Positions 16,276-23,903 of a stretch of 56,275 bases of DNA are shown in pieces; position 1 is the first letter of the stretch; every line of letters begins with the position of its first letter. The position numbers and the translations under genes were made by a program. A model generated the notes under the pieces. That model was not told the DNA's origin. It searched no databases and was given only the letters and a program-made list of their open reading frames with translations. Origin of the DNA: Patescibacteria group bacterium (GTDB lineage Bacteria > Patescibacteriota > Minisyncoccia > Minisyncoccales > Staskawiczbacteraceae); the NCBI GenBank assembly GCA_038065715.1, contig JBBTQL010000002.1, positions 1 to 56,275 on the forward strand, written 5' to 3'.

Positions 16276-16346
16276 AGGGGCATAGTTCAATGGCAGAATA
16301 ATGGTCTCCAAAACCATTGATCAAGGTTCGAATCCTTGTGCCCCTG
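16276..16346 (+). tRNA. trnW: tRNA-Trp (anticodon CCA)
   Basis: Cloverleaf: acceptor AGGGGCA/TGCCCCT, anticodon arm ATGGT-CTCCAAA-ACCAT, T arm CAAGG-TTCGAAT-CCTTG. Confidence 0.93.
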
Positions 16347-16406
16347 CCTTCGCTTCGCTGTAGCGAAGCTTCGGCAAGGCGAAGCCTGCCTAAGATTCGC
16401 GAAGGC
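16346..16406. repeat. GC-rich palindromic repeat element, copy 1, directly abutting the tRNA-Trp 3' end
   Basis: Overlapping hairpins GCTTCGC-TGTA-GCGAAGC (16352-16369) and GCTTCG-GCAAGG-CGAAGC (16368-16385), with an outer GCCTTCGC (16346-16353) / GCGAAGGC (16399-16406) pair. Confidence 0.85.
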
Positions 16407-16418
16407 GAGAACAATAAA

Positions 16419-16649
16419 ATGTTTTATGTTTATAATTTAAAATGTAAAGATGGGTTTTATACAGGTTGCACGAACGATATTGTAGATAGGCTAAAAAGGC
16501 ACGAAAACGGCGAGGTTATCGCTACTGCAAATCGCTTGCCGGTTAGTTTGCATTTCTATATGGCTATTGAGGATAAATATAAAGCATACGAATTAGAAAA
16601 GTATTTCAAGTCTGGATCAGGAAGGGCATTTGTAAATAAGCATTTATAA
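16419..16649 (+). CDS. GIY-YIG nuclease-domain protein (76 aa)
   Basis: FYVYNLKCKDGFYTGCTNDIVDRLKRHENG matches the GIY-YIG (URI) motif. The ORF-track start at 16317 overlaps the tRNA, so it is trimmed to the ATG at 16419. Confidence 0.8.
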   Translation: MFYVYNLKCKDGFYTGCTNDIVDRLKRHENGEVIATANRLPVSLHFYMAIEDKYKAYELEKYFKSGSGRAFVNKHL

Positions 16650-16786
16650 TGAATCGAACTATTCGCTAATATTATGCGACATAAATAAAAAAATCACCTT
16701 TTAATTGAGGTGGTTTTTTAATGCGTTGTATGTATTAGTTGAATTTAGTAACCAAGCCCTGTACCTTATCATTGGGTTAGTGTACG

Positions 16787-16809
16787 AAAAAAGTTCCAAC
16801 CAATGGAAC
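16787..16809 (-). terminator. Intrinsic terminator of the GC-rich operon
   Basis: On the minus strand: GTTCCA-UUGGU-UGGAAC followed by UUUUUU. Confidence 0.75.
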
Positions 16810-16857
16810 TTTTGAGAGCGTCTAAGCAGGTGAACAAAATATAAAATCTGCTGAGCG

Positions 16858-17226
16858 CTATTCGCCGATGAAATCAGGATCAGTATTCTCGAAGAACTCC
16901 TCGGTCTTCATATACTTTTCCAACTCACGCTGGAAGTACTCGTCGAACTGGTCATCGGCGATGCCCAGTTTCTTGGCCGCCTCTCGGAGCTCGGGCTCCA
17001 GCTTGCGGGAACCGATTTCAGCCGCACGCTTTACGTACCTCGTGAGGAACGTGTAAGCCGCGAGATCCTCCAAAGGAACCCCCATCTTTACGGCAAGCTT
17101 GTCTAAGTCACCGAAAAGATCGTACCAGTCCAGCATGGCCTTCCAGCCTCCCTGACGATTCAGTTCGGCTTCTTCTTGGATGGCTGTCTGCCGGAGAAGT
17201 TCCTCCATTATTTTCACACCAGTCAT
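16858..17226 (-). CDS. Orphan protein D (122 aa, net acidic), 4th cistron of the GC-rich operon
   Basis: SD GAAGGAG lies 6 nt upstream of the ATG. GC-rich codon usage. No motif recognised. Confidence 0.7.
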   Translation of the reverse strand: MTGVKIMEELLRQTAIQEEAELNRQGGWKAMLDWYDLFGDLDKLAVKMGVPLEDLAAYTFLTRYVKRAAEIGSRKLEPELREAAKKLGIADDQFDEYFQRELEKYMKTEEFFENTDPDFIGE

Positions 17227-17254
17227 GTTTCGCTCCTTCTAAATGTACAAATTT

Positions 17255-17306
17255 CTGTTTTCGTCCTTTCGGACTCATCAGTTCCGATAACACATCGGAA
17301 TAACAG
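17255..17306 (-). ncRNA. Type III hammerhead ribozyme motif (HHR-1)
   Basis: Minus strand: CUGUUA / UUCCGAU-GUGUU-AUCGGAA / CUGAUGA / GUCC-GAAA-GGAC / GAAA / ACAG. All core nucleotides are present and stem III is a 5-bp CUGUU/AACAG. Confidence 0.8.
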
Positions 17307-17360
17307 GAGGGTTTTGTTTTAGGCAACCCTCATGCCTTTCTTATCGTTGCATTTAACCCG

Positions 17361-17537
17361 TTAGGGTTTGGTCTGGCTGGGCGAATTCGCATTCTGCCTT
17401 GCCAGCTTCGCGTCGAGCCTCCGGATCATTGCCTGCCTTTCGGCAGATGTCATACTCTTCAGCTCGGCGTAACGCCTTTTCCCTAGAAGCCGTTGAACGG
17501 CTTCGGGAGTCAGTTCTCTCGCTTCCTCATCCGTCAT
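17361..17537 (-). CDS. Unannotated 58-aa basic helical ORF C (MTDEEARELTPEAVQRLLGKRRYAELKSMTSAERQAMIRRLDAKLARQNANSPSQTKP)
   Basis: Translated by hand codon by codon. ATG at 17537, TAA at 17363-17361, SD AAAGGAG 7 nt upstream. It starts 23 nt after the stop of cistron B and is below the 60-aa ORF-track cutoff. Confidence 0.6.
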   Translation of the reverse strand: MTDEEARELTPEAVQRLLGKRRYAELKSMTSAERQAMIRRLDAKLARQNANSPSQTKP

Positions 17538-17560
17538 TGGATGACTCCTTTTTGGTTGTT

Positions 17561-17971
17561 TCAGCAGATGTCGCCGTTGGCATTGAAGTTTACGGCTGTA
17601 CCATAGAACTCCTGCTTGGCTGACTTTCGGTAGAACCGAATTTCAACTCTCACCGTGCAGTTGATAAATGCCTTCAAAGTTGCCTCAATTCGCACTGACT
17701 CGCGGAATTCTCTGAAAATCCTATCCGATTCCGCATGGCAGCCATCAAAAAACTTGTATATGATCTGCAACTGCGGACGCAACTCTTCACGGTCGTGATA
17801 GCCACTCATCAGAAGCCCGACAAGTTCAGCCGGAAATACGACTGCATGATTGAAGGCTTTCGCCAGTAATCCGCTATCTTTCACGCCGGTCTCGCACTCG
17901 AGATTCTTCTTATTCGTCAAACGCTGGCGGAGGTAGTTGTCGATAAAAATCGACACTTTCTTGAGTAACAT
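17561..17971 (-). CDS. Orphan protein B (136 aa), 2nd cistron
   Basis: The internal ATG at 17971 has SD AAAGGAG 7 nt upstream. The longer ORF-track start (18061) would read through the hammerhead motif. Confidence 0.65.
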   Translation of the reverse strand: MLLKKVSIFIDNYLRQRLTNKKNLECETGVKDSGLLAKAFNHAVVFPAELVGLLMSGYHDREELRPQLQIIYKFFDGCHAESDRIFREFRESVRIEATLKAFINCTVRVEIRFYRKSAKQEFYGTAVNFNANGDIC

Positions 17972-18022
17972 CGCGATTCTCCTTTTGGGAAATGGCTCGC
18001 TATGGCCAATAAAAATGTGCAA

Positions 18023-18071
18023 CTGTTTCGTCCTTTTGGACTCATCAGGGAAAGCACACACTTTCCGACAG
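18023..18071 (-). ncRNA. Type III hammerhead ribozyme motif (HHR-2)
   Basis: Minus strand: CUGUC / GGAAAG-UGUGUG-CUUUCC / CUGAUGA / GUCC-AAAA-GGAC / GAAA / CAG. The core is complete with a GUC cleavage triplet. Confidence 0.82.
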
Positions 18072-18139
18072 ATGGAGAAATTTGGATGTGTCGGTATTCT
18101 CCGTTGCGCTGGCGCGCACCGACTTATTATCGTGGGAGG

Positions 18140-18709
18140 TTACTCCTCGTGTTCACTCTCCGGGTAGAGAGTTAGCTCTGAAACGGGTTTCCATTTCTTC
18201 CCGTCCCACAAGCGGCTTCCGTTCGGAAGCTCCACGACATCGTTGTCGAACTGATCGTTGAAGGCCATCCAGTGATTGATATCCTTTCTGCACCGGAACT
18301 TCCCGCTGTGGCCCATGTCAGCGCTATACAACCTTGACCCCCACGGCACCGCCAGTAAGCGATATCCGTAATGATCTCCGCTGTTATGGCTGAACGTGGA
18401 CGCCACGACGAGAGCATCTCGCGAACCAATCCCTGCCAGTGCCTGATCAACTCCGACCAGGCAATCTAGCAACTCGACCTCCTGTCCGCGGAACACATAG
18501 ATCCGCTCCTCTTCCACGCCGAGGTTGGCGAAGCGCACGAAGTCCTCCTTTGGCCTGGGCTGGGGTTTGAACCCCACTTTCTCCAGTGCCAAGTTGAAGG
18601 CTTCGAGCACCTTCTCGCTTCCCATCTGGACATCCGAGTCCAGGGCGAACAAACGATCGATGCCACAGAAATCGTTGACCGGACCGACGAAGTAACGGTA
18701 AGTAGCCAT
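18140..18709 (-). CDS. Orphan protein A (189 aa), 1st cistron
   Basis: GC-rich ORF with GAAAGGA 9 nt upstream of the ATG. No motif recognised. Confidence 0.7.
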   Translation of the reverse strand: MATYRYFVGPVNDFCGIDRLFALDSDVQMGSEKVLEAFNLALEKVGFKPQPRPKEDFVRFANLGVEEERIYVFRGQEVELLDCLVGVDQALAGIGSRDALVVASTFSHNSGDHYGYRLLAVPWGSRLYSADMGHSGKFRCRKDINHWMAFNDQFDNDVVELPNGSRLWDGKKWKPVSELTLYPESEHEE

Positions 18710-18789
18710 GAGATTTGTTCCTTTCAGGAAAACGGGCTCTCTATGGCCCTAAATCAGGGGAAGCACCTATACTACAATGTACTATATTA

Positions 18790-18818
18790 AGTATATAATA
18801 CTCTAACCATATTGTCAA
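18790..18818 (-). promoter_or_regulatory. Sigma70-type promoter of the GC-rich operon
   Basis: Minus strand: TTGACA (18818-18813), a 17-nt spacer, TATACT (18795-18790), then TAATATA. Confidence 0.7.
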
Positions 18819-18863
18819 GGGGTCGTTCTTGCAAAGTGGAATAGGTGAGGAATAAAGCACCAT

Positions 18864-18892
18864 CCTTCGCTAAAGCTTCGGCATGGCGAAGC
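18864..18892. repeat. GC-rich palindromic repeat element, copy 2
   Basis: CCTTCGCTAAAGCTTCGGCATGGCGAAGC shares CCTTCGCT and AGCTTCGGCA-GGCGAAGC with the copy at 16346-16406. Hairpin GCTTCG-GCATGG-CGAAGC. Confidence 0.8.
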
Positions 18893-23674: not shown

Positions 23675-23766
23675 TAAATAAACAAAAAATCGTCCTTTTA
23701 CAAGTTTGGGCGATTTTTTGTTTACGCACTTGCAAAATTAATTAAAAAAACATATTATTTAAAATT

Positions 23767-23841
23767 AGGGTCGTAGCTCAATGGGAGAGCGCCCGGAGCC
23801 ACGTGGTCTGGGAGGTGTGGGTTCGAGTCCCACCGACTCTA
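23767..23841 (+). tRNA. tRNA-shaped gene with a non-canonical expanded anticodon loop; identity unresolved
   Basis: Canonical acceptor (AGGGTCG/CGACTCT), D arm (GCTC-AATGGGA-GAGC) and T arm (GTGGG-TTCGAGT-CCCAC). The anticodon stem CCCGG/CTGGG encloses 11 nt, AGCCACGTGGT, instead of 7. Confidence 0.6.
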
Positions 23842-23903
23842 TTTCATTGTTCATTGAAAACTAGATTACCAATACTGAAAAACACAACCCAAGGAGAACC
23901 AAG

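What the first reader, a model, noticed from the sequence alone, without database searches (positions are those of the whole stretch)
17255..17306. Second type III hammerhead motif between cistrons C and D, with compensatory differences from the first
The minus strand reads CUGUUA UUCCGAU-GUGUU-AUCGGAA CUGAUGA GUCC-GAAA-GGAC GAAA ACAG. It has the same invariant core and the same stem II helix as HHR-2. Stem I is entirely different (7 bp) and stem III is a different 5-bp helix (CUGUU/AACAG), with cleavage after UUA. The helices are maintained with different sequences while the core is identical, which is the pattern expected of functional ribozyme paralogs rather than chance matches. It is again immediately preceded by a hairpin (GAGGGUU...AACCCUC, 17331-17307). 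The downstream leaders share TG(T/C)ACATTT before the SD.
Basis: seen in the sequence. Interest (0 to 1): 0.8.

Follow-up and report, generated by a model that had tools for sequence, protein, structure and literature searches.

The report
Second hammerhead ribozyme between two genes
This is a real, complete type III hammerhead (self-cutting RNA) motif between two small genes of a foreign four-gene insert in an ultra-small groundwater bacterium; it most likely cuts the shared transcript into separate messages, a use already proposed for phage hammerheads.

Summary
The minus strand 17306-17255 reads CUGUU-A | UUCCGAU-GUGUU-AUCGGAA CUGAUGA GUCC-GAAA-GGAC GAA AACAG, a full type III hammerhead. 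Its lowest-energy fold is the three-way junction.

Rfam's Hammerhead_3 model scores it only 19.4 bits (threshold 48.5), because it misaligns stems I and III. A covariance model I built from 67 independent hammerheads (66 on phage contigs, one on a 322-nt record), none from this window, hits exactly these coordinates at 56.6 bits (E about 5e-14).

The 7-bp hairpin directly 5' of it and the TGTACA leader are also real. The hairpin probably forms a small pseudoknot.

The motif lies between genes C and D of a four-gene, higher-GC operon. That operon sits in a 2.5-kb insert beside tRNA-Trp in a Staskawiczbacteria-like (CPR) genome; the closest relative lacks the insert.

In 68 of 70 related hammerheads a hairpin abuts the ribozyme, and in 69 of 70 a gene starts about 23 nt downstream.

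Best explanation: self-cleavage separates the cistrons. This leaves a structured 3' end upstream and a 5'-OH, ribozyme-capped leader on D.

Clustered prophage hammerheads with this proposed role were described in 2011, so this is a new member of a known kind. Cleavage is untested, and the UUA cleavage triplet is unusual.

The parts
17255..17306 (-). Type III hammerhead ribozyme (HHR-3). Stem III is CUGUU/AACAG, A17 is at 17301, and the predicted cleavage lies between 17301 and 17300. Stem I has 7 bp with loop GUGUU. The core is CUGAUGA. Stem II is GUCC/GGAC with loop GAAA, followed by GAA.
   Evidence: Sequence. The lowest-energy fold is the three-way junction. Custom model R1 scores 56.6 bits, E 5e-14, full length. 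Rfam RF00008 scores only 19.4 bits.
17307..17337 (-). Upstream hairpin GAGGGUU (17331-17325) / AACCCUC (17313-17307) with an A-rich 11-nt loop. AGGC at 17337-17334 can pair with loop GCCU at 17324-17321, which would make an H-type pseudoknot. After cleavage this structure would be the 3' end of the A-B-C RNA.
   Evidence: Sequence. A hairpin abuts 68 of 70 related hammerheads. The pseudoknot pairing recurs with covariation in 13 instances, and 0 of 2000 controls reach the observed total.
17227..17254 (-). Leader of gene D, 28 nt, containing TGTACA (17249-17244) and the Shine-Dalgarno GAAGGAG (17239-17233).
   Evidence: Sequence. The TTGYACA leader is shared with HHR-2, L001 and 19 metagenome loci. 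Median distance from hammerhead to ORF start in the family is 23 nt.
16858..17226 (-). Gene D (122 aa, no known family), the cistron downstream of the ribozyme.
   Evidence: ORF list. One homologue at 90% identity on L001, also preceded by a hammerhead. There are 22 synonymous against 12 non-synonymous codon differences.
17361..17537 (-). Gene C (58 aa, no known family), the cistron upstream of the ribozyme.
   Evidence: ORF list. No family above threshold.
18022..18072 (-).
   Evidence: Rfam RF00008 scores 49.7 bits, above the 48.5 gathering score. R1 scores 71.5 bits.
17561..17971 (-). Gene B (136 aa, an orphan), downstream of HHR-2.
   Evidence: ORF list. Only itself was found among 5.8 billion clusters.
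18140..18709 (-). Gene A (189 aa), the first cistron. It belongs to a small family with no fold match.
   Evidence: 12 relatives found. AlphaFold2 model with pLDDT 86, and no Foldseek match in PDB or BFVD.
18790..18818 (-). Promoter-like site TTGACA-17-TATACT, matching 11 of 12 consensus positions, for the A-B-C-D operon.
   Evidence: Consensus scan.
16787..16809 (-). Intrinsic-terminator-like hairpin GUUCCA-UUGGU-UGGAAC followed by U6, after gene D. It is identical in L001.
   Evidence: Sequence and alignment with L001. The consensus scan did not list it because it has only 2 G-C pairs.
16340..16385 (+). Left copy of the imperfect direct repeat that flanks the 2.5-kb insert. It overlaps the 3' end of tRNA-Trp.
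   Evidence: Repeat families D1 and D5. In L070, tRNA-Trp ends 65 nt before the helicase start.
18857..18892 (+). Right copy of the flanking direct repeat (attR-like).
   Evidence: Repeat families D1 (95%) and D5 (80%).

Best explanation
The motif is an active type III hammerhead ribozyme inside the intercistronic region of a single A-B-C-D transcript. That transcript runs from the promoter at about 18818 to the terminator at about 16790 on the minus strand.

Once transcribed, the ribozyme folds into its three-way junction and cleaves itself after A17, between 17301 and 17300.

- The upstream product (A-B-C, or B-C if HHR-2 has also cut) ends in the hairpin or pseudoknot at 17337-17307, followed by a 6-nt tail with a 2',3'-cyclic phosphate. 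This is a poor substrate for 3' exonucleases.
- The downstream product starts with a 5'-OH that is base-paired in stem I. It carries the folded ribozyme as a 5' cap-like structure, followed by a 28-nt unstructured leader with the Shine-Dalgarno of gene D.

The net effect is that each cistron becomes its own mRNA, with a defined end, its own stability and a translation start insulated from upstream sequence. No host RNase is needed for the cut.

Shown here: the motif, its family membership, its stereotyped placement, and its foreign mobile-element context. Inferred: cleavage in vivo and the effects on stability and translation.
For: - All invariant hammerhead positions and all three helices are present, and the lowest-energy fold is the junction.
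- A model built from 67 independent hammerheads (66 on phage contigs, one on a 322-nt record) hits exactly 17255-17306 at 56.6 bits, E 5e-14, with no non-canonical pair.
- Loop 1 (UGUGUUA) and loop 2 (GAAA) match variants seen in those hammerheads.
- In 20 of 20 metagenome matches selected only on core, stem II and leader, stems I and III are intact. In an alignment of these with the window and L001 copies, the stems covary.
- The nearest relatives (L154, L152, L160) share the unusual A15.2-U16.2 pair, with a UUC triplet.
- Placement is stereotyped: 68 of 70 hammerheads have a hairpin ending -1 to +2 nt from stem III, and 69 of 70 have an ORF start at a median of 23 nt downstream.
- The operon has one strong promoter, one terminator and no convincing internal promoter.
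- On L001 the D homologue is again preceded by hairpin, hammerhead and TGTACA leader, although the upstream gene differs.
- In related elements, intercistronic gaps of similar layout hold a hairpin followed by an 18-24-bp double-stranded hairpin (z -5.5 to -9.4). This resembles an RNase III processing site, which points to processing as the shared role.
- Literature: clustered prophage hammerheads cleave about 2-kb native polycistronic RNAs in vitro and are proposed to yield single-gene mRNAs (PMC3088659). The 2019 review says the same and notes that the purpose is still undefined (PMC6765202).
Against: - No cleavage data exist for this sequence.
- The UUA triplet is unique among 72 distinct hammerheads examined (56 GUC, 8 GUA). 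From my own knowledge of minimal hammerhead kinetics, UUA is among the slower NUH triplets, so cleavage may be slow or partial.
- In the 146-nt context, the lowest-energy fold pairs the stem III 5' strand (UGUU) with GGCA upstream of the hairpin instead of forming stem III.
- Rfam's curated model does not reach its threshold.
- The insert carries no integrase and may be a decaying remnant.
- The effects on RNA stability and translation are inferred by analogy only.
Confidence: 0.75

Rival explanations
1. The motif is a crippled or very slow hammerhead. It would be a relic in a decaying fragment of a mobile element, structurally intact but with little cleavage in vivo because of the UUA triplet and a competing upstream pairing.
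For: - UUA occurs in 1 of 72 distinct hammerheads.
- The closest relatives have UUC at the same place, so C17 to A is a recent change.
- The insert has no integrase or other mobility gene.
- The lowest-energy fold in long context sequesters the stem III 5' strand.
Against: - A17 is allowed by the NUH rule (PMC4191386), and 10 of the 72 distinct hammerheads examined (the window's included) have A17.
- Every other core position and all 16 pairs are intact.
- Gene D shows more synonymous than non-synonymous change relative to L001.
- The promoter, Shine-Dalgarno sites and terminator are intact.
- An identical copy was assembled independently from another sample (L167).
Confidence: 0.12
2. Cleavage is conditional. 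The stem III 5' strand can pair either with GGCA (17336-17333), extending the upstream hairpin and switching the ribozyme off, or with AACAG, switching it on. Formation of the AGGC/GCCU pseudoknot, or a bound factor, would tip the balance. Cleavage might also release the D leader from a long-range helix with the region just after the C stop codon.
For: - The lowest-energy fold and the centroid of the 146-nt region show the extended hairpin and a UUAAAUG/CAUUUAG long-range helix enclosing the hairpin and ribozyme.
- L001 shows an analogous extension, GGUUA/UGAUC, with one compensatory change, and its Shine-Dalgarno is paired in the uncleaved fold.
- The pseudoknot partner overlaps the GGCA strand, so the two pairings exclude each other.
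Against: - Only two sequences support it.
- The helices are short and rich in G-U pairs, and the z-scores of the long folds are weak (-2.2 and -1.3).
- Nearest-neighbour energies ignore the hammerhead's tertiary contacts.
- No ligand-binding or protein-binding element was identified.
Confidence: 0.08
3. The two hammerheads act together to excise the 767-nt B-C segment as a discrete RNA that is then circularised, as in viroid-like agents or retrozymes.
For: Two same-strand type III hammerheads flank B-C. Cleavage leaves 5'-OH and cyclic-phosphate ends, which RtcB-type ligases can join (general knowledge). Perreault et al. raised this possibility.
Against: - The two copies have different stem III sequences. 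Joining the ends would place U16.2 of HHR-3 opposite C15.2 of HHR-2, so no hammerhead is rebuilt across the junction, unlike in viroids and retrozymes.
- The segment carries ordinary protein-coding genes with Shine-Dalgarno sites.
- Perreault et al. looked for circular or spliced products and found none.
Confidence: 0.03
4. The conserved hammerhead core and leader serve mainly as a DNA-level recombination joint between gene cassettes of mosaic phage-like elements. RNA cleavage would be secondary.
For: - Homology between the window and L001 starts exactly at the D start codon and ends just after the terminator. The cassette upstream is a different hammerhead copy, and the upstream genes are unrelated.
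- The same hairpin-hammerhead-leader cassette precedes different genes in L150, L158 and L168.
Against: A recombination joint needs no maintained RNA helices, yet stems I and III are fully paired with covariation. This role does not exclude cleavage and would be an extra consequence rather than an alternative.
Confidence: 0.02

Closest known systems
Type III hammerhead ribozymes (Rfam RF00008 Hammerhead_3, clan CL00010), for example those of plant virus satellite RNAs and viroids
   Same: The core is the same (CUGAUGA ... GAAA), with the A15.1-U16.1 pair, an NUH cleavage site, stems I and II closed and stem III open. Stem II and loop 2 (GUCC-GAAA-GGAC) are identical to those of 322-457-nt records fetched from IMG/VR (L018, L020, L059). 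I take these to be plant satellite RNAs from their length and their hammerheads; I did not verify it.
   Different: The loops are very short (5 nt and 4 nt). The triplet is UUA and the second stem III pair is A15.2-U16.2, so the curated Rfam model misaligns it and gives 19.4 bits against a 48.5 threshold. It is DNA-encoded in a bacterial mobile element, between protein genes, not in a rolling-circle RNA replicon.
Clustered hammerheads flanking genes in prophages (Perreault et al. 2011, PMC3088659: Clostridium scindens, Azorhizobium caulinodans, Agrobacterium tumefaciens ardA locus)
   Same: Several same-strand hammerheads lie between small, variable, mostly hypothetical genes of a phage-like element. 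They are proposed to process a polycistronic RNA into single-gene mRNAs, and in vitro cleavage of about 2-kb native transcripts was shown there.
   Different: The host here is a CPR (Staskawiczbacteria-like) genome, and the element is a 2.5-kb insert without an integrase. The abutting hairpin or pseudoknot and the TGTACA leader did not come up in the passages of that paper that I searched by keyword; I did not read it in full.
HHphage of haloviruses HF1/HF2 (Perreault et al. 2011)
   Same: The hammerhead lies a few nucleotides upstream of a start codon (13 nt there, 28 nt here). The mapped 5' end of that transcript lies within 3 nt of the cleavage site, which suggests the ribozyme defines the mRNA 5' end in vivo.
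   Different: HHphage has an atypical core insertion and sits at the start of a polycistronic transcript in an archaeal virus. The motif here has a consensus core and sits between cistrons.
RNase III intercistronic processing sites of phage T7 early mRNA (general knowledge)
   Same: Both act as cuts between cistrons that leave a stem-loop at the 3' end of the upstream mRNA. In elements related to this one, intercistronic gaps of similar layout hold a hairpin plus an 18-24-bp duplex hairpin in place of a hammerhead.
   Different: T7 sites need the host enzyme RNase III. The hammerhead cuts by itself and leaves 5'-OH and 2',3'-cyclic phosphate ends rather than 5'-phosphate and 3'-OH.
Synthetic ribozyme insulators such as RiboJ (general knowledge)
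   Same: A self-cleaving hammerhead placed in a 5' leader removes upstream RNA context, so that the downstream gene has a constant 5' end and constant translation.
   Different: RiboJ is engineered from a satellite RNA hammerhead with an added 3' hairpin. Here the arrangement is natural and the accessory hairpin is on the 5' side.

Membership tests
Hammerhead ribozyme, type III | Conserved core strand C3-U4-G5-A6-N7-G8-A9 between helices I and II | tested here: met
   CUGAUGA at 17281-17275; aligned to the invariant columns of 67 hammerheads.
Hammerhead ribozyme, type III | G12-A13-A14 between helices II and III, and the A15.1-U16.1 pair | tested here: met
   GAA at 17262-17260. A15.1 at 17259 pairs with U16.1 at 17302. 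This pair is U-A in 67 of 67 family members.
Hammerhead ribozyme, type III | Cleavage-site nucleotide H17 (not G), within an NUH triplet | tested here: met
   The triplet is UUA with A17 at 17301. It is allowed by the NUH rule (PMC4191386) but occurs in only 1 of 72 distinct hammerheads.
Hammerhead ribozyme, type III | Three helices around the core, with helices I and II closed by loops and helix III open (this topology defines type III) | tested here: met
   Stem I has 7 bp with a 5-nt loop, stem II has 4 bp with a GAAA loop, and stem III has 5 bp and is open. The lowest-energy fold reproduces this, and all 16 modelled pairs are canonical.
Hammerhead ribozyme, type III | G10.1-C11.1 pair closing helix II next to the core | tested here: met
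   G at 17274 pairs with C at 17263. This pair is G-C in 66 of 67 family members.
Hammerhead ribozyme, type III | Loop 1 and loop 2 able to make the tertiary contact needed for fast cleavage at low Mg2+ | tested here: inconclusive
   Loop 1 with its closing pair (UGUGUUA) is identical to that of L005_4185 and L057_6201. Loop 2 (GAAA) is shared with many hammerheads on phage contigs and with the short records I take to be satellite RNAs.
Hammerhead ribozyme, type III | Score at or above the Rfam RF00008 gathering threshold (48.5 bits) | tested here: not met
   The score is 19.4 bits, E 2.5, with stems I and III misaligned. The same Rfam search also missed all of the more than 30 hammerheads in 12 phage loci, so the threshold is insensitive to this short-looped subgroup. 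The custom model gives 56.6 bits.
Hammerhead ribozyme, type III | Helices maintained by covariation in relatives | tested here: met
   In the 17-sequence alignment (14 from the pattern-selected metagenome loci, plus the two window copies and L001; nothing was imposed on stems I or III), 97.8% of cells are paired. There are 71 double-change cells against 20.5 (sd 4.1) in shuffles, and the covariation score is 0.71 against 0.10 or less for slid partners. The 67-sequence set gives 306 against 85, but that set was chosen with a pairing descriptor.
Hammerhead ribozyme, type III | Site-specific self-cleavage giving 2',3'-cyclic phosphate and 5'-OH ends | not testable with these tools
   This needs in vitro transcription or RNA end mapping.
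Clustered prophage hammerheads that flank genes (Perreault et al. 2011) | Two or more same-strand hammerheads between short genes of a phage or mobile element within one transcription unit | tested here: met
   There are two hammerheads 767 nt apart on the minus strand of a four-gene operon with one promoter and one terminator. The operon lies in a foreign insert at tRNA-Trp that is absent from the closest relative. R1 finds no hammerhead in 875 kb of 80 related CPR loci.

The most novel reading that the evidence does not exclude
The hairpin or pseudoknot, the ribozyme and the leader may form one modular intercistronic cassette that moves between phage-like elements. In this reading the pseudoknot is a dedicated 3'-end protector. 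The equivalent intercistronic gaps in sister elements hold other conserved structured RNAs with no Rfam match: the UACC-loop pseudoknot plus a long duplex, and an 85-nt element after the homologues of gene A. These could include an undescribed self-cleaving class rather than RNase III sites. It would also be the first hammerhead documented in a CPR/Patescibacteria genome, where a cut that needs no RNase might matter.
Probability: 0.15. Interest if true: 0.7.

Novelty: new member of a known kind. Interest (0 to 1): 0.35.

Why it matters
It adds a well-supported natural case in which hammerheads sit at a fixed position between cistrons: a hairpin directly upstream and a start codon about 25 nt downstream. 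That is the arrangement expected if the ribozyme defines mRNA ends. The biological role of bacterial and phage hammerheads is still described as undefined in the 2019 review.

Three practical points follow:

1. Rfam's Hammerhead_3 gathering threshold reported none of the hammerheads in 12 phage loci, where my descriptor scan had found more than 30. This short-looped subgroup is therefore under-annotated.
2. The abutting hairpin, probably a pseudoknot, is a testable candidate for a 3'-end stabiliser.
3. The element sits in a CPR bacterium, a group in which I found no published hammerhead.

None of this changes what a hammerhead is understood to be.

Tried and rejected
**Searches that gave nothing useful**
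- Direct search for loci encoding D relatives in genome contigs and viral contigs found nothing. Only one D homologue exists in 5.8 billion protein clusters.
- Gene B has no homologue at all.
- Alignment-based locus search for A relatives failed or found nothing.
- Contigs encoding A homologues (L063-L069) carry no hammerhead, so gene A is not a ribozyme-linked marker.
- Pfam, PHROGs, PADLOC and NCBIfam gave no family above threshold for A-D.
- The AlphaFold2 model of A (pLDDT 86) matched nothing in PDB or BFVD.

**Ideas considered and dropped**
- I recalled that the Rfam 'drum' motif accompanies hammerheads. The paper does not say so, and no drum hit was found.
- I tested whether the non-hammerhead intercistronic RNAs are known ribozymes such as twister, pistol or hatchet. 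There was no Rfam hit even at E up to 5-10.
- I considered the upstream hairpin as an intrinsic terminator and rejected it. No U-tract follows it, and there are 0 nt between it and the ribozyme.
- I considered a promoter between the hairpin and gene D and rejected it. There is no room, and the scan finds none.
- A chance match is rejected.

Full report
**1. The observation**

Read on the minus strand, window 17306-17255 is CUGUU-A-UUCCGAU-GUGUU-AUCGGAA-CUGAUGA-GUCC-GAAA-GGAC-GAA-AACAG. In hammerhead numbering:

- CUGAUGA is C3-A9.
- GAA is G12-A14.
- A15.1 (17259) pairs with U16.1 (17302).
- A17 (17301) is the cleavage-site nucleotide.
- Helices I (7 bp, or 8 with a U-G pair) and II (4 bp) are closed by loops, and helix III (5 bp) is open. 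This is the type III topology.

The 62-nt stretch folds into exactly this junction as its lowest-energy and centroid structure (-16.4 kcal/mol; 0 of 200 shuffles as stable).

A deliberately loose descriptor finds only this motif and the one at 18071-18023 in the whole window. It finds 3 hits in 200 dinucleotide shuffles.

**2. Is it a hammerhead by an independent yardstick?**

Rfam's Hammerhead_3 model finds the sister motif at 49.7 bits, just above its 48.5 threshold. It gives this motif only 19.4 bits, because it forces a GUC-type stem III and skips stem I.

I therefore searched IMG/VR for the core plus stem II only. This returned 61 contigs. I parsed them and aligned 67 distinct type III hammerheads, none from the window or from L001. 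From that alignment I built a covariance model, R1.

- R1 hits window 17255-17306 full length at 56.6 bits, E about 5e-14, with every pair canonical.
- It hits 18022-18072 at 71.5 bits and nothing else in the window.
- Rfam at gathering thresholds reports none of the more than 30 hammerheads in 12 of those phage loci. Failing that threshold says little for this short-looped subgroup.

**3. Covariation**

The 67-sequence set was chosen with a pairing descriptor, so its 99.7% pairing is circular. Its 306 double-change cells (85 in shuffles) only show that the helices vary.

A fairer test comes from a metagenome scan for core, stem II and a TTGYACA leader, which imposes nothing on stems I or III.

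- All 20 matches in 19 loci have complete hammerheads.
- In 17 distinct sequences (14 from these loci, plus the two window copies and L001), 97.8% of cells pair.
- There are 71 double-change cells against 20.5 in shuffles.
- The covariation score is 0.71, against 0.10 or less when the partners are slid.

One of those loci (L167, Hainich groundwater) is 100% identical to window 16459-18445, so it is the same element and not independent evidence.

The nearest true relatives (L154, L152/L160) read CUGUU-C-CUCGGAU...AUCCGAG...GAAAACAG. They have the same unusual A15.2-U16.2 pair, two compensatory swaps in stem I and a UUC triplet.

**4. Context**

- *Host.* The flanking helicase has 70-83% identical orthologues in Candidatus Staskawiczbacteria and other Patescibacteria MAGs.
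- *Insert.* In the closest relative (L070), tRNA-Trp ends 65 nt before the helicase start. In the window they are 2.6 kb apart.
- *Flanking repeats.* The extra DNA is bounded by imperfect direct repeats, 16340-16385 and 18857-18892. The left copy overlaps the tRNA 3' end.
- *Contents.* The insert contains a GIY-YIG gene with host-like GC. It also contains a minus-strand block of roughly 44% GC, in a window that is mostly 29-38% GC.
- *Operon.* The block has a promoter-like site TTGACA-17-TATACT (11 of 12), four small ORFs A-D with Shine-Dalgarno sites, and a terminator-like hairpin with a U6 tail.
- *Ribozyme positions.* The hammerheads lie between A and B and between C and D.
- *Related CPR genomes.* R1 finds no hammerhead in 875 kb of 80 related CPR loci.
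- *Proteins.* A-D have no family in Pfam, PHROGs, PADLOC or NCBIfam. A has 12 relatives and a confident model with no fold match. B is an orphan.

The ribozymes therefore came in with a foreign, phage-like cassette.

**5. The one homologous locus**

D has a single homologue (90% identity) on a 6-kb contig, L001. There too D is preceded by hairpin, hammerhead and TGTACA leader: ACUGAU-C-CGAGAAU-GUGC-AUUCUCG-CUGACGA-GUCC-AAAA-GGAC-GAA-AUCAGU.

The upstream gene is unrelated. Nucleotide homology (90%; 22 synonymous and 12 non-synonymous codon differences) begins exactly at the D start codon and ends after the terminator.

So the two hammerheads are different copies placed at the same slot, which suggests cassette exchange. 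They are not one copy that accumulated compensatory changes.

**6. Stereotyped architecture**

Across 70 distinct hammerheads in the fetched loci:

- The 37 nt upstream fold with a mean of -15.0 kcal/mol, against -4.2 for random 37-mers of the same loci (Mann-Whitney p about 1e-38).
- In 68 of 70, a hairpin ends -1 to +2 nt from stem III.
- In 69 of 70, an ORF of at least 40 codons starts at a median of 23 nt downstream (interquartile range 21-27).

The window's motif fits, with 0 nt to the hairpin and 28 nt to the start codon. Many contigs carry three or four such units.

**7. The hairpin is probably a pseudoknot**

In the window, AGGC (17337-17334) can pair with the first four loop bases, GCCU (17324-17321). 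The same geometry recurs in 13 instances with different sequences:

- GUCGGUG/UACCGAC before HHR-2.
- AGGU/ACCU in L001.
- CCGGUG/UACCGG in L068.
- UCCAG/CUGGA in L150.

The strand sits 2-4 nt upstream, or 13-16 nt upstream with a small inserted hairpin. It pairs with the 5' part of the loop and is followed by an A-rich tract.

Summed complementarity is 58.5. Permuting partners gives 47.5, and shuffling the upstream sequence gives 44.3. In both controls 0 of 2000 trials reach the observed value. Several instances are related by descent, so this is suggestive and not proof.

**8. Mechanism**

The best-supported reading is constitutive or near-constitutive self-cleavage of the A-B-C-D transcript after 17301.

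- The upstream RNA then ends in the hairpin or pseudoknot plus a 6-nt tail with a cyclic phosphate.
- The downstream RNA begins with a paired 5'-OH, the folded ribozyme and a short open leader with the Shine-Dalgarno.

This matches what Perreault et al. proposed and partly showed in vitro for clustered prophage hammerheads (PMC3088659). The 2019 review still lists it as a suggestion (PMC6765202).

Independent support comes from sister elements. In L001, L063, L064 and L068, intercistronic gaps of similar layout contain a hairpin followed directly by an 18-24-bp duplex hairpin (z -5.5 to -9.4). This looks like an RNase III site and has no Rfam match. Two unrelated devices in comparable slots point to RNA processing as the shared role.

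The stability and translation effects are inferred from general knowledge of 5'-end-dependent decay, 3' exonucleases, T7 RNase III sites and synthetic ribozyme insulators.

**9. Caveats and rivals**

- *Slow or inactive ribozyme.* The UUA triplet is unique among the 72 distinct hammerheads. It is allowed by the NUH rule but is probably slower than GUC.
- *Conditional cleavage.* In a 146-nt context the lowest-energy fold pairs UGUU with GGCA upstream of the hairpin, and a long-range helix brackets the whole unit. L001 shows something analogous. A conditional switch therefore cannot be excluded, but it rests on two sequences and weak helices.
- *Circular B-C RNA.* Excision of a circular B-C RNA is unlikely. 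The two copies have incompatible stem III sequences, and Perreault et al. found no circles.
- *Recombination joint.* A role as a recombination joint is compatible, but it would not explain the maintained helices.

**10. Verdict**

This is a genuine type III hammerhead and a new member of a known kind.

Modest novelty lies in four points:

- the CPR host (no paper in the library links hammerheads with Patescibacteria);
- the abutting pseudoknot;
- the UUA site;
- the blind spot in Rfam's threshold.

Noticed in passing
window 16340-18892: A 2.5-kb insert lies at the 3' end of tRNA-Trp. It is bounded by imperfect direct repeats (16340-16385 and 18857-18892) and is absent from the closest relative, L070, where tRNA-Trp ends 65 nt before the helicase start. 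It holds a GIY-YIG gene of host-like GC and the operon that carries the hammerheads, at roughly 44% GC. There is no integrase.
   Followed up: yes
window 17994-18007 and 18735-18748 (minus-strand leaders of B and A): Genes A and B share a leader element GGCCAUAG(A/C)GAGCC just upstream of their Shine-Dalgarno sites (repeat family D4). A related CAUAGAGCC...GGGCUCUG is present in the first leader of L001. Its function is unknown.
   Followed up: no
window 17249-17244 and 18016-18011; L001 678-683; L150-L168: A palindromic TG(T/C)ACA within (A)UUUGUACAUU follows the hammerhead by 3-20 nt in the window, in L001, in L016/L062 and in 19 metagenome loci. Its role is unexplained. It could be a protein-binding site, or one strand of a long-range helix with the region after the upstream stop codon.
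   Followed up: partly
L001 1990-2075 and 2650-2735; L063 452-530 and 1195-1268; L064 4893-4975; L068 2343-2425: In elements related to this one, intercistronic gaps of similar layout hold a hairpin (often with a UACC loop) followed at once by an 18-24-bp duplex hairpin (z -5.5 to -9.4). None matches any Rfam family. They look like RNase III sites but could be something new.
   Followed up: partly
L063 1097-1200; L067 610-712; L068 580-680: An element of about 85 nt follows or precedes homologues of gene A: CGYCAGGU..ACCUGRCGUGAGUGGGGAUC-hairpin-GCGAGACCACAG. Two of its hairpins covary among three sequences, and it has no Rfam match. It is a candidate structured RNA.
   Followed up: partly
L005, L007, L009, L012, L022, L027, L031, L036, L051, L057 (upstream of each hammerhead): In many marine phage contigs, the hairpin abutting the hammerhead looks like a tRNA acceptor/T-arm minihelix. 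It has the stem GUGUC/GACAC with loop UUCAAAG, stacked on a further 6-7 bp. ARAGORN calls no tRNA there (L009, L031). It may be a tRNA-like 3' end produced by ribozyme cleavage.
   Followed up: partly
L010 1359-1460: A hammerhead core starts 2 nt after tRNA-Gln, inside an array of 12 tRNA genes on a 69-kb viral contig. This suggests ribozyme-assisted processing of a tRNA 3' end.
   Followed up: no
L005, L007, L009, L016, L022, L027, L028, L036, L043, L051, L057, L060: At gathering thresholds Rfam release 15 reports none of the more than 30 type III hammerheads in these 12 phage loci. The short-looped phage subgroup is systematically under-called.
   Followed up: yes
L150, L151, L158, L162, L165, L154, L152/L160 (about 230 nt around each hammerhead): In contigs of 43-61% GC, the hairpin-hammerhead-leader unit is part of a larger conserved cassette. 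A long structured leader (GGCUCACUUCGUGAGUAGCACA...) follows the ribozyme. The same cassette precedes different downstream genes, which suggests a mobile expression module.
   Followed up: no
window 1-2099: The 23S rRNA match stops at model position 2632 of 2925 at window base 227, and 5S rRNA begins only at 1991. An ORF (1108-1587, 159 aa) lies in between. This suggests an intervening sequence in the 23S gene, as is common in CPR bacteria.
   Followed up: no
window 23766-23842: The tRNA-Arg (ACG) aligns to the Rfam tRNA model with 11 nt instead of 7 in the anticodon-loop region. I did not examine this further.
   Followed up: no
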